Source: Giardia intestinalis (Eukaryota). Taken from it: a stretch of DNA of 64,000 nucleotides. The stretch lies in NCBI GenBank assembly GCA_000002435.2, contig CM018793.1, one strand, 5' to 3'. Positions 27,001 through 30,000 of this stretch are shown here, in pieces. Made by a program: the position numbers. The stretch's first letter is position 1. Each line of letters starts with the position of its first letter.

Positions 27001-30000
27001 AGATGAGAGTAAATTAGGGGACCTTATTGAAAAAGAAACAGCGACCCGAGCTTCATCCACCACGAAGGAAGACCAAGGAGAGGCGCCACCGGTAGAGCAG
27101 AGGGTCTGCGAGAAGGCCTGAATCCTGGGCAGGCAGACGTGCACACACAGACTGAGCACACTTCCACAGAGCGACCGGGGAAGGTGCCAGGTTTTAGATA
27201 TACTAATAAAGAGGACTCCCTAGTATGTCGTCTACAACCAGCCATCGTCCTTGGACTGACCAGAACTTGAACGAGAATTTACTCGTGAGATTTTTGGATC
27301 GTGCCTGCAGGCGGCCCGGCAGCACAGCGCTGGAAGCAACCGGTGGGTGGAGTGAATCACTAATAATACTTTAGACATATCACCGTGCACCAGTCAGCCT
27401 AAAGCTTAATAAAGTCTTGACCTCCTGCATGCTTGCTACCTCTTTTTCTATACCCATAGGTGTGTATTTACGAATAGCGCCGCTCTGAACGTATGCAGTA
27501 GCCAGGTATCTCACCAAACTAACGATTGCGGGAATAGAGGGCTGGAACTGGATCTTCATCTGATAAAGTTGCAACATGGAAACACACAATCTTCGAACGC
27601 TGAACAGAATGGAGCAAGACAATCCACGTCAGTATATAGTATAGGGGCATTCTTAACGTTATAGTGGTTATGAGTATAACATCTTTAATAGAGAGAGCAG
27701 GACTATGAGAGATTACGGTTCAGACAACCGTGAAAGGTATACAGGAATCCATGTGCGGGCGCTCTAAGTGTCTTAAGAGGATTCAGTGGAAGCAGCAATT
27801 GGTACTATTGTTAAAAACAACGGCCAGTTGCATTCCCCGATTCTGGACCTCTACATAAGACTGGTAAAACCTATCCCCCTGTGCTCCACGTGATAACTTT
27901 AGAAAGTGGCACTGGGATTGAAGGACATGATTGAAGAGCCTTTTTAACCAGAAGCACCCCAGGATCCTCTCTAGTGTCCGACCCTTTGAAGTTTCACGAG
28001 CATTACGGGCACTCTGCGCCAAGGCCCACAAGACGATGTTGCTCCATGACAACCGGCGTGGGTTATTAAGAGATACTGGGAGAGCACAGCACAGATCACT
28101 GGGGTGACCATCGATTGACAGTGTGACAAAATCAGTAGTTACAGGTGTCACAGGATCACAAGCGTCAGCATCCAGTGGGGCTCATAGGTACCTTTTTCCT
28201 CATGTTCAGGCAGAATCGTTACGAAGAGCATTGGAGTCTCGCAGAGGCCGTATTGCTGTGATGAAATGCTAATTACGCGATATATGACAGTCGGCATACT
28301 TCCTGCCTAACCATGGACCGAGACATTATTTTCTGAGATAGAGGGTTATGGTACTTTAGACTAATTAGTTTAGACTCGTTAGTGAAGTTTTCAATAAAAA
28401 AGAATATCTTTATTGGGAGCGTTCGCTACCATCAGTGAAAGCTAAAAACATAGGATGGCTTATATTAGAATGCTGTTATTGACTTTCTACTTCATAGTGA
28501 ATAGTTTCGCAGCGCCTTGCCAACAGAAGGGGTATCACATGGTAACATGCAAACCGAATAGCTGTGAAAGAGTTGGTGTCATAGAGATTTGTGTTCAGTG
28601 TAGGGCAGGAGGGGTTCCTATCAATGGACAATGCTCTCTATTCGACACTTCTTATGTTGCTGAAGCGAGATGTACCAAAAGTGATGGTACCGCTTTGACA
28701 AGTTCCGATACTACCTGCGGAAAGTGCGGCGGTGAGTACTTTCTCTTCATGGGAGGGTGTTATGGCATAAAGTATAGACCTGGCAATGAGATATGCACTA
28801 GGGCTGATGATGGAAAGTGTACCACTTGTAATACAGGAAATAGTGGTAAATACGTATTTAAGAATGGAGACCCTAATGCTGCGCCGGGAACAGAATGCAT
28901 TCTGTGCCATGATACGATGGGAGCAAATGGATATACAGGAGTAGCAAACTGTGCAGAGTGTAGCCATGCAGGAACTAGTTCTGGTGCTGCTACCTGTGGA
29001 AAATGCCAGACAGAATACTTTAAGAGTGGAGATACATGTACACCATGTGGAGCTGATTGTTGGATTTGTGAATCTACAGCTAAGTGCACAGTGTGCAAAT
29101 ATGGAAAATATATAAAAGAAAATGGTAATGATAGAACTTGTGTAGACACTAGTGGATGTGGTACTGGTAACTATGCAGATATAAGAACAAACGAGTGCAA
29201 GCCGTGCACGGACACAAGTGTCAATGAATGTGCTACGTGTACATACAGTGACACCCTCAGGAAGCCCGTATGCACTGGGTGTAATAGTGGAGGAGCCAAG
29301 CCTCTCCTTAAGGTGGACCTCGATGGGTCAGCGACGTGCGTTGCGGAGGGAGAGTGTGCAAGTGGCAATACGCACTTCCTTGAACAATCTCCAAAGGCTT
29401 GTGTCCCGTGTGGTGATGCTAAGAATGGTGGGATTCTAGGTTGTAGCACTTGCTCCTCTAAAACTACATGTACAAAGTGCCTCGATGGATATTACAATAG
29501 TGGAAATGGTGGTACGGTTACATGCACAGCTTGCGGTGCCAACTGTGCTACATGCTCTGCTGCTGGCAATGATCAGTGCACTAAATGCAAGCCTGGATTC
29601 TTCATGAAACAACCCGGCTCTGCTGGTAAGTGCTTCGCCTGCGACAGTAAAGCCGACAATGGCATCGAGGGGTGCTCCCAATGTAACAGCGGCCTAACCC
29701 CTACATGCACCGATTGCAAGTCCAACTATCGCAAGGAGGGAACCAATCCGGTGAAGTGCACAAAGGCCTGCGAGGACCCCACGGCCTGCGGGGGGACGTC
29801 TGGGGCCTGCGGGGCGGTCGTCGTTGACAGCGCCGGGGCGTTCTCCCAGTACTGCTCGCTGTGCGGAGACCCCGCCACATTCCCCATCGATGGCGTTTGC
29901 ACAGGGGATAAGGGCGGGAATACCTGTGCCAATGGCGTCTGCACCCGGTGTGCTGCCGGGTTCTTCCTCTTCATGGGCGGCTGCTATGATGTGTCGAAGG

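What the first reader, a model, noticed from the sequence alone, without database searches (positions are those of the whole stretch)
27031..27360. A third dispersed copy of the repeat element has a sharp shared terminus and its own adjacent skewed GC tract
27031-27360 is the reverse complement of 16350-16685 almost base for base. It ends at exactly the same 'gtgattcactcc' boundary as arm A, while the flanks of the two copies differ. A precise shared terminus with differing flanks is what mobile or recombinationally copied elements show, more than a fortuitous VSP-flank duplication. Read on the minus strand, copy C is followed by an A-depleted GC-rich tract (26900 back to 25400). This is the same architecture as arm A followed by its core, so the window holds two loci of 'repeat plus skewed tract'.
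Basis: seen in the sequence. Interest (0 to 1): 0.65.

Follow-up and report, generated by a model that had tools for sequence, protein, structure and literature searches.

The report
Solo arm module of Giardia VSP palindromes
The 330-base repeat is a non-coding module with two defined ends that normally forms the outer part of the inverted-repeat arms behind Giardia surface-antigen (VSP) genes; this stand-alone copy was recently overwritten by gene conversion from a neighbouring copy, so it adds detail to a known but unexplained feature of VSP islands rather than revealing a new kind of element.

Summary
The window is Giardia intestinalis WB, chromosome 5. The repeat is real. Copy C (27031-27360) matches arm A (16350-16680, inverted) at 84.6%, so it is not "base for base". 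It matches arm B (18605-18899, direct) much better: 98.1% over 260 nt. A and C share the sharp end ...GGAGTGAATCAC, and so does the orthologous copy in isolate DH.

C is a mosaic. Its inner 260 nt equal B but are only 68% identical to its own DH orthologue. Its outer 70 nt are 98.6% identical to both A and DH. This points to a recent ectopic gene conversion.

A profile search found eight diverged relatives in gut-metagenome Giardia contigs. One sits directly behind a VSP stop codon and is followed head-to-tail by a second unit. The ~330-nt unit therefore has two defined ends.

A-core-B has the geometry published for spacers of tail-to-tail VSP pairs, but carries a VSP on one side only. The GC-rich tract next to C is real but is not homologous to the A/B core. 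I found no coding capacity, RNA structure, target-site duplication or transposase/RT relic.

Verdict: a recombination-propagated arm module of VSP palindromes. It is a new variant of a known kind and of modest interest.

The parts
27031..27360 (-). Copy C: solo ~330-nt unit U. Read on the minus strand it runs from the outer end GTGATTCACTCC (27360) to the inner end ...GTTTCTTTTT (27031).
   Evidence: blastn; unit HMM 1-333 matches 27360-27029, E 1e-105; alignments.
27031..27290 (.). B-type gene-conversion tract inside C.
   Evidence: 98.1% identical to B (100% over 27161-27290) but only 67.8% identical to the DH orthologue at the same locus.
27291..27360 (.). Outer 70 nt of C that were not converted.
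   Evidence: 98.6% identical to A and to DH_C, 40% to B.
27010..27030 (.). Junction between unit C and the neighbouring GC-rich tract; an A/T run lies at the breakpoint.
   Evidence: Alignment A1: WB_C departs from DH_C, B and A at the AAAAAAG run.
25345..27009 (-). GC-rich (61.6%), A-poor 1665-nt tract beside C. It is bounded by its own ~105-139-nt inverted repeat of about 70-73% identity (25345-25483 against 26876-27009). It is non-coding and not homologous to the A/B core.
   Evidence: no Pfam hit in six frames.
16350..16680 (+). Unit U of arm A. Its outer end at 16350 lies 11 nt upstream of the first ATG (16339-16337) of a giant minus-strand ORF.
16681..16810 (+). Inner arm segment X of arm A.
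   Evidence: The inverted repeat 16648-16810 / 18474-18636 (unit ends plus X) is 93% complementary. X is also present after the unit in DH_C (z 17.7) and in 7 of 8 metagenome relatives.
16811..18473 (+). 1663-nt GC-rich (about 62%), A-poor (14%) non-coding core of the A/B palindrome.
   Evidence: no Pfam hit; no excess RNA folding. Its ends are conserved in P0158 and P0159, and an internal 40-mer is conserved in L016.
18474..18604 (-). Inner arm segment X of arm B.
18605..18899 (-). Unit U of arm B. The outermost ~34 nt are replaced by the 3' UTR and extended polyadenylation signal of VSP1.
   Evidence: the sequence ACTTAGGTAGTAAACGC is read on the minus strand at about 18922-18938.
18941..20533 (-). 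VSP1 (vsp50, GL50803_137710), the gene whose 3' end abuts arm B.
   Evidence: Pfam VSP, E 3.6e-37; Adam 2010 Additional file 1.
20698..22497 (-). VSP2 (vsp49, GL50803_41472, KAE8305263.1, annotated as 587 aa). It is in the same 90%-identity cluster as the tail-to-tail pair 137707/137708.
28455..30629 (+). VSP-family gene annotated 'High cysteine membrane protein Group 1' (KAE8305264.1). The outer end of C lies 1094 nt upstream of its start.
2..16339 (-). Giant ORF of at least 5451 open codons that runs off the left end of the window. Its 5' end borders arm A.
   Evidence: no Pfam family.

Best explanation
Copy C is a stand-alone copy of a ~330-nt non-coding unit, U. In the orientation of arm A on the plus strand, U reads 5' GTGATTCACTCC ... 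GCTGTCTTTTTT 3'. U is the outer part of the inverted-repeat arms found directly 3' of Giardia VSP genes.

The full structure is VSP stop, polyadenylation signal, U, a 130-nt segment X, a ~1.66-kb GC-rich core, then X and U inverted, and normally a second, convergent VSP. A-core-B in this window is such a palindrome, with a VSP on the B side only.

I think the unit is spread and kept similar by ectopic homologous recombination and gene conversion between VSP islands, with occasional joins at its A/T-run inner end. I do not think it moves by transposition.

In the WB lineage, a B-type copy overwrote the inner 260 nt of C. The sequence inward of the unit is now an unrelated GC-rich tract, whereas the DH orthologue still has X there.

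Shown: the copies, both unit boundaries, the mosaic identity, the position behind VSP genes, and the lack of coding or RNA-structure signal.

Inferred: homology to the spacers of the published tail-to-tail VSP pairs (by dimensions only), the direction of conversion, and recombination as the only means of spread.
For: 1. The organism and genes are identified as G. intestinalis WB chr5, with vsp49, vsp50 and an HCMP gene.
2. There are three copies in the window with E-values of 1e-100 or better.
3. Identity is mosaic. C is 98.1% identical to B over 27031-27290, but only 67.8% identical to its own DH orthologue there. The unique flank 27237-28500 is 95.8% identical to the DH-like metagenome contig L007, and the outer 70 nt of C are 98.6% identical to DH.
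4. In DH the copy at the C locus continues inward with X.
5. phmmer against 1.84 billion representatives found eight diverged arm ORFs in Giardia-bearing metagenome contigs. In seven of them U runs into X. P0158 extends into the left end of the core and P0159 into the right end.
6. In L015/L016 a 641-aa VSP, its stop and its polyadenylation signal are followed by unit u1. The inner end of u1 is joined, after 2 nt, to the very terminus of a second unit u2.
7. Dimensions match the literature. U ends 337 nt and X ends 467-529 nt beyond the VSP1 stop, and the core is 1663 nt. Adam 2010 Table 5 reports that the flanks of tail-to-tail pairs diverge 318-354 or 486-559 nt beyond the stop, with ORF-to-ORF distances mostly 2638-2814. 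Xu 2020 Table 2 lists 12 convergent pairs separated by 2526-2813 bp.
8. A 2022 preprint reports that the spacers of two different pairs are highly conserved.
9. There is no Pfam domain in any frame of either locus or the remaining spacers, no Rfam hit, and the covariation term is +0.6.
Against: - I could not obtain the DNA of any published WB tail-to-tail pair. The WB assembly is not in the position index, so membership rests on dimensions and on one VSP-adjacent relative (L015/L016), not on sequence comparison.
- Sharp boundaries seen in several contexts, including a head-to-tail tandem, are also what a mobile element would give.
- Neither A nor C has a VSP or a VSP relic beyond its outer end (tblastn). 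The unit can therefore exist away from VSP 3' ends.
- The direction of conversion assumes that the DH copy keeps the ancestral state.
- The GC-rich, A-poor composition of the cores is unexplained.
Confidence: 0.6

Rival explanations
1. U alone, or the whole U-X-core-X-U palindrome as a foldback element, is a non-autonomous transposable element. It inserts near VSP genes and seeds their inverted duplication.
For: - The unit has defined ends at both sides, each seen in three contexts, including a tandem u1|u2 junction.
- Copies are dispersed, and there are at least eight diverged relatives.
- It has no coding capacity, as expected for a non-autonomous element.
- The strand that starts with GTGATTCAC ends in T6, which resembles a Pol III stop (sequence).
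- Two solo ends, A and C, are not next to any VSP sequence.
Against: - There is no target-site duplication at C, and no shared target motif at A and C (sequences).
- There is no poly(A) tail, and ARAGORN finds no tRNA-like sequence anywhere in the window.
- No transposase or reverse-transcriptase relic was found anywhere in the 14.6-kb island.
- The one event that can be reconstructed, B-type sequence into C, is a partial internal replacement. That is conversion, not insertion.
- The C locus is occupied in both the AI and AII sub-assemblages.
Confidence: 0.2
2. The unit is a functional sequence kept by selection. It could be a source of hairpin or antisense RNA for small-RNA control of VSP expression (the A and B arms could pair into a ~460-bp stem), or a regulatory or boundary element.
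For: - The outer 70 nt are 97-99% identical among A, C and DH_C, while the adjacent 260 nt are 68-81% identical.
- The element is consistently placed 3' of VSP genes.
- It persists in several diverged Giardia lineages.
Against: - Across five non-redundant units, conservation is flat at 52-75% in most 20-column windows, with a single 85% peak and no strongly conserved block.
- RNAalifold gives no covariation support.
- Folding z-scores of the terminal block range from -2.1 to -0.2, and those of the two core halves are 0.07 and +2.7.
- There is no Rfam match.
- I had no expression data.
Confidence: 0.12
3. The near-identity of B and C is an assembly or consensus artefact of the long-read WB assembly, or the whole resemblance is chance.
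For: VSP regions are known to be hard to assemble and to show more read-level variation (Xu 2020).
Against: - E-values are 1e-100 or better.
- An independent assembly of isolate DH and a metagenome contig carry the unit at the same locus with the same outer end.
- The gene order agrees with the older Sanger annotation numbering.
Confidence: 0.03

Closest known systems
Spacers of tail-to-tail (convergent) identical VSP gene pairs in G. lamblia WB (Mowatt 1991, vsp1267; Adam et al. 2010, PMC2996952; Xu et al. 2020, PMC7000408)
   Same: - The arms are inverted repeats that start just after a VSP stop codon and polyadenylation signal.
- They diverge abruptly a few hundred nt beyond the stop: 337 nt and 467-529 nt here, against 318-354 and 486-559 nt published.
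- The unique non-coding centre is about 1.6-1.7 kb.
- A symmetric version of A-core-B would put the two ORFs about 2.6 kb apart, against 2526-2814 bp published.
- The locus is on chr5, in the same VSP neighbourhood as pair vsp48 (137707/137708).
   Different: - Only one side carries a VSP. The other arm ends at the promoter of a giant gene.
- The arms are 84% identical rather than nearly identical.
- Copy C is a solo outer unit with no partner arm.
- Sequence homology to the published spacers could not be tested here.
GilD / Genie 2, the dead non-LTR retrotransposon family of Giardia (Arkhipova & Morrison 2001; Burke et al. 2002, the latter from memory)
   Same: It is found beside VSP genes (PMC2861651). 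From memory, Genie 2 copies carry inverted repeats. Microhomology-type junctions are also reported for GilD.
   Different: No reverse-transcriptase or endonuclease relic was found in any frame of the arms, cores or other spacers. Xu 2020 places the RT remnants between head-to-head pairs, not tail-to-tail pairs.
Large palindromes with arm-to-arm gene conversion (for example human Y-chromosome ampliconic palindromes); established knowledge, from memory
   Same: Inverted arms surround a unique spacer. Gene pairs in the arms are kept identical by conversion. Conversion tracts have sharp ends.
   Different: The scale is far smaller: 0.3-0.5-kb non-coding arm extensions. The conversion seen here is ectopic, between direct copies 8.4 kb apart.
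SINE, MITE or foldback non-autonomous elements
   Same: It is short and non-coding, has defined ends, occurs dispersed and in tandem, and forms long terminal inverted repeats in the A/B arrangement.
   Different: It has no target-site duplication, no poly(A) tail, no tRNA-like sequence detected by ARAGORN in the window, and no autonomous partner is known. From memory of the literature, no SINE or DNA transposon has been reported in Giardia.

Membership tests
Tail-to-tail VSP pair spacer (Adam 2010 / Xu 2020) | The arm begins immediately 3' of a VSP stop codon and its extended polyadenylation signal. | tested here: met
   Met for B: VSP1 stop at 18941 and unit homology up to 18899-18912. Met for L015/L016 u1. 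Not met for A or C themselves, which have no VSP sequence beyond their outer ends.
Tail-to-tail VSP pair spacer (Adam 2010 / Xu 2020) | The inverted 3' flanks diverge abruptly about 320-560 nt beyond the stop, and the ORFs lie about 2.5-2.8 kb apart. | tested here: met
   The inverted repeat ends 467 nt beyond the VSP1 stop (529 nt with its weak extension), and U ends at 337 nt. The core is 1663 nt, so a symmetric distance would be about 2.6 kb.
Tail-to-tail VSP pair spacer (Adam 2010 / Xu 2020) | Two convergent VSP genes, usually identical, flank the spacer. | tested here: not met
   Only VSP1 is present. Left of arm A lies the 5' end of a giant ORF, and tblastn finds no VSP relic there.
Tail-to-tail VSP pair spacer (Adam 2010 / Xu 2020) | Sequence homology to the spacers of the annotated WB pairs. 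| not testable with these tools
   WB chromosomes are not retrievable. The only indirect support is L015/L016 (VSP followed by the unit) and the core-end matches of P0158 and P0159.
Non-LTR retrotransposon relic (GilD/Genie 2, GilM, GilT) | A recognisable reverse-transcriptase or endonuclease coding remnant. | tested here: not met
   Six-frame Pfam scans of 16340-18900, 25000-27370, 22498-25010 and 27361-28454 gave no RT or endonuclease family up to E = 1; the only entry in those scans was one sub-threshold Fer4_23 match in 27361-28454.
Non-autonomous transposon (SINE/MITE/foldback) | Defined termini shared by copies at unrelated sites. | tested here: met
   Each end occurs in three different contexts.
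Non-autonomous transposon (SINE/MITE/foldback) | Target-site duplications flank individual insertions, or there is a poly(A) tail. | tested here: not met
   The flanks of C (…GTATTATTA | unit | CAATAAGG…) and of A show no direct repeat. No A-tail is present; the unit ends in T6. The test is weak because only one copy has both flanks, and its inner part has been converted.
Non-autonomous transposon (SINE/MITE/foldback) | Presence/absence polymorphism with clean empty sites between isolates. | tested here: inconclusive
   The C locus is occupied in both WB (AI) and DH (AII). The P15 (E) region is too diverged and rearranged to score.
Structured non-coding RNA gene | A conserved secondary structure with compensatory changes, or a match to a known family. 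| tested here: not met
   RNAalifold covariation term +0.6 on six units; no Rfam hits; z-scores of -2.1 or weaker.

The most novel reading that the evidence does not exclude
The ~330-nt unit, alone or as the U-X-core-X-U foldback, is a previously unrecognised non-autonomous mobile element of Giardia. It lands beside VSP genes, and its long inverted arms then nucleate the tail-to-tail VSP palindromes by spreading arm-to-arm conversion outward. It would be an element that drives duplication of antigen genes. By the literature I read, this genome holds only non-LTR retrotransposon families.
Probability: 0.15. Interest if true: 0.65.

Novelty: new variant of a known kind. Interest (0 to 1): 0.35.

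Why it matters
Adam et al. 2010 called the inverted VSP pairs of Giardia "an interesting, but cryptic observation". If the arms behind those genes are built from a discrete unit that also occurs solo, in tandem and beside only one VSP, three things follow.

- The palindromes can be broken down into modules.
- Half-palindromes such as A-core-B give a view of how the pairs form or decay.
- The conversion tract in C gives a concrete, datable example of ectopic sequence exchange within a VSP island. That is the process thought to diversify the antigen repertoire.

This sharpens a known picture; it does not overturn it.

Tried and rejected
- **Degenerate retrotransposon (GilD/Genie 2):** rejected. 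Six-frame Pfam scans found no RT or endonuclease relic.
- **Coding gene:** rejected. The 370-aa ORF 25599-26711 and the arm ORFs have no Pfam hit, and indels between copies break the frames. The word-indexed protein searches found nothing, but both stopped at 8000 candidates, the highest count returned, which looks like a cap. The arm part of that negative was wrong: the index-free phmmer search then found eight relatives.
- **rRNA, ncRNA or tRNA-derived:** rejected.
- **The tract next to C is a diverged copy of the A/B core or of X:** not supported. nhmmer stretches the B/C alignment about 90 nt past 27031, but at low posterior probability, and the Smith-Waterman z-score is only 2.2.
- **X is a decayed second unit:** not supported (z 1.3-2.1).
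- **More degenerate units hidden in the cores:** none found with a unit HMM.
- **VSP pseudogene beyond the outer ends of A or C:** none found.
- **'Gene-poor' 16 kb to the left of A:** wrong. It is one giant ORF that the ORF listing omits because it runs off the window.
- **Exact-protein look-ups:** look-ups of window ORFs and of WB VSPs found nothing. Two VSP contigs picked by size, L013 and L014, have unrelated 3' flanks.
- **Collection scans:** JGI metagenome and prokaryote-genome scans gave nothing or chance hits.
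Full report
**Where we are.** The window is Giardia intestinalis WB (assemblage AI), on the 4.02-Mb chromosome-5 contig. The E1 enzyme at 31016-34294 is XP_001708030.1/KAE8305265.1. The finding lies in a 14.6-kb VSP island between two ordinary genes.

- On the left is a giant minus-strand ORF, 2-16354, with at least 5451 open codons. It runs off the window, so the ORF listing does not show it, and it has no Pfam family.
- On the right is E1.
- The island holds vsp50/GL50803_137710 (18941-20533, minus strand), vsp49/GL50803_41472 (20698-22497, minus strand) and a VSP-family gene annotated HCMP group 1 (28455-30629, plus strand).
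- tblastn with 120 VSPs finds VSP-like coding in the island only at 18944-22710 and 28407-30626.

**Checking the observation.**
- blastn gives three copies: A at 16350-16810 (inverted), B at 18474-18899 and C at 27031-27360.
- A against C is 84.6% over 331 columns. A against B is 84.4% over 429. B against C is 94.6% over 297, or 97% ungapped over 269.
- The 19-mer at the shared end occurs exactly twice in the window, against 0.02 expected. The flanks beyond it are unrelated.
- The tract next to C is GC-rich and A-poor on the minus strand: GC 61.6%, A 16.4%. The A/B core has A 14.3% on the plus strand.
- So the coordinates, the shared end and the composition are right.

**C is a mosaic.** The locus has an orthologue in isolate DH (assemblage AII; L006, AHGT01000054.1) and in a DH-like metagenome contig, L007. 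The unique flank 27237-28500 is 95.8% identical to L007, and both contigs break off inside the repeat. In a four-way alignment:
- Over 27031-27290, WB_C is 98.1% identical to WB_B, and 100% over 27161-27290. It is only 67.8% identical to its own DH orthologue and 80.8% identical to A.
- Over 27291-27360, WB_C is 98.6% identical to both A and DH_C, and 40% identical to B.

The simplest reading is that a B-type sequence overwrote the inner 260 nt of C after the AI/AII split. A conversion in the DH lineage instead cannot be ruled out. Either way, a very recent exchange between B and C in WB is certain.

**Both ends of the unit are genuine boundaries.** In DH the copy continues inward past the point equivalent to 27031 with the same 130-nt segment X that follows the unit in A and B (z 17.7). 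At first this made 27031 look like a mere breakpoint.

An index-free phmmer search with the arm ORF 18463-18819 changed that view. It found eight diverged relatives (E from 1e-20 to 5e-4), all from ENA gut-metagenome assemblies. Mapped back by tblastn:
- All eight cover the unit. Their matches to C always stop at 27027-27045.
- Seven continue into X.
- P0158 runs on into the left end of the A/B core, to 16961.
- P0159 runs into the right end of the core, to 18314.
- P0160 is a unit followed by a second unit.

Its contigs, L015 and L016, show a 641-aa VSP, its stop and polyadenylation signal, then unit u1. The end of u1...GCTGTCTTTTTT, is joined after 2 nt to TGATTTACTCCACCC..., the very terminus of u2.

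So the outer end occurs next to three unrelated sequences, and the inner end is followed by three different sequences.

**What it belongs to.** B and u1 lie directly behind VSP genes. In A-core-B:
- U ends 337 nt beyond the VSP1 stop.
- The inverted repeat ends 467 nt beyond the stop, or 529 nt with its weak extension.
- The core is 1663 nt.

Published figures match these. Adam et al. 2010 report that the 3' flanks of identical tail-to-tail VSP pairs are the same up to an abrupt divergence 318-354 or 486-559 nt beyond the stop, with ORF-to-ORF distances mostly 2638-2814 bp. Xu et al. 2020 list 12 convergent pairs 2526-2813 bp apart. A 2022 preprint notes that the spacers of two different pairs are highly conserved.

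A symmetric A-core-B would put two ORFs about 2.6 kb apart. I therefore read A-core-B as a tail-to-tail-type spacer with a VSP on one side only, and C as a solo outer unit. Arm A ends 11 nt before the first ATG of the giant ORF.

This membership rests on dimensions plus one VSP-adjacent relative. I could not fetch the DNA of any WB pair.

**What it is not.**
- No Pfam domain appears in any frame of either locus or in the remaining spacers, so there is no RT or transposase relic.
- There are no Rfam matches and no tRNA-like sequence.
- The core does not fold better than shuffled sequence (z 0.07 and +2.7). The terminal block reaches z -2.1 at best.
- RNAalifold on six units gives a covariation term of +0.6.
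- Conservation along the unit is fairly flat: 52-75% in most 20-column windows, with one 85% peak.
- No target-site duplication and no poly(A) tail are visible.

**The GC tract beside C.** The tract 25345-27009 has its own inverted repeat of about 70% identity (25345-25483 against 26876-27009). It has no detectable homology to X or to the A/B core. 'Repeat plus skewed tract, twice' is therefore a resemblance in composition only. In WB, the adjacency of C to this tract is a secondary junction at an A/T run.

**Mechanism.** My best explanation is spread and homogenisation by ectopic recombination and gene conversion among VSP islands (confidence 0.6). The rivals are a non-autonomous mobile or foldback element (0.2), a selected regulatory or small-RNA source (0.12) and an artefact (0.03). 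The unexplained features are the A-poor, GC-rich composition of the cores and the reason the unit ends are reused as junctions.

**Novelty.** VSP inverted pairs and their conserved non-coding spacers are known. In the papers I read I did not find three points described: a discrete arm unit that also occurs solo and in tandem, a half-palindrome abutting a housekeeping promoter, and a mapped conversion tract. I class the finding as a new variant of a known kind, with interest 0.35.

Noticed in passing
window 2-16354 (-): One uninterrupted open frame of at least 5451 codons that runs off the left end of the window. It has no Pfam family. The ORF listing omits it, which makes the region look ORF-free. 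Likely start codons are at 16339-16337 or 16282-16280, the latter preceded by an AT-rich stretch.
   Followed up: partly
window 25345-25483 and 26876-27009: The GC-rich tract next to copy C is bracketed by its own inverted repeat: about 70% over 139 nt, 73% over 105 nt ungapped. The whole block is 1665 nt, nearly the same length as the 1663-nt A/B core, but no sequence homology is detectable.
   Followed up: partly
window 22498-25010: A stretch upstream of vsp49 with no long ORF, including a 62% GC segment at 22600-23400. Six-frame Pfam scans found nothing. The old RefSeq numbering (XP_001708032) implies that a hypothetical gene was once called somewhere between the HCMP gene and vsp49.
   Followed up: partly
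window 19142-19750 vs 29706-30317: vsp50 and the HCMP/VSP gene share 65% nucleotide identity in inverted orientation. They are diverged paralogues that face each other across the island.
   Followed up: no
window 18439-18475: A short (CCCCACCAG)n tandem repeat sits at the boundary between the core and X of arm B. It accounts for an indel that interrupts a weak continuation of the inverted repeat (16815-16840 against 18412-18437).
   Followed up: no
L016 2489-2528 vs window 17886-17849: About 260 nt beyond the second unit, the metagenome contig has a 34/40 match (z 8.6) to the interior of the A/B core, in the orientation expected when reading from the B side. This hints that A/B-type cores follow VSP-linked units elsewhere.
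   Followed up: partly
Adam 2010 Table 5 vs window 18474-18941: The published divergence points of tail-to-tail pairs fall into two groups: 318 and 354 nt, against 486-559 nt beyond the stop. These parallel the inner end of the unit (337 nt) and the inner end of X (467-529 nt) here.
   Followed up: no
window 20698-22497; cluster: vsp49 (587 aa) falls in the same 90%-identity cluster as the 593-aa tail-to-tail pair 137707/137708 (KAE8305305/6), which lies about 40 genes away on the same chromosome.
   Followed up: no
window 59272-59474 and 59521-60456: A K/D/E-rich tandem repeat (periods 6, 30 and 54) lies inside ORF 57667-59508. The next ORF, 59521-60456, gave a weak VSP-like tblastn hit (E 9e-10).
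   Followed up: no
L011 (isolate P15, ACVC01000192.1) 13555-18205: At the same position next to E1, assemblage E has two VSP genes head to head and no detectable unit. The VSP island is a break in synteny between assemblages.
   Followed up: partly
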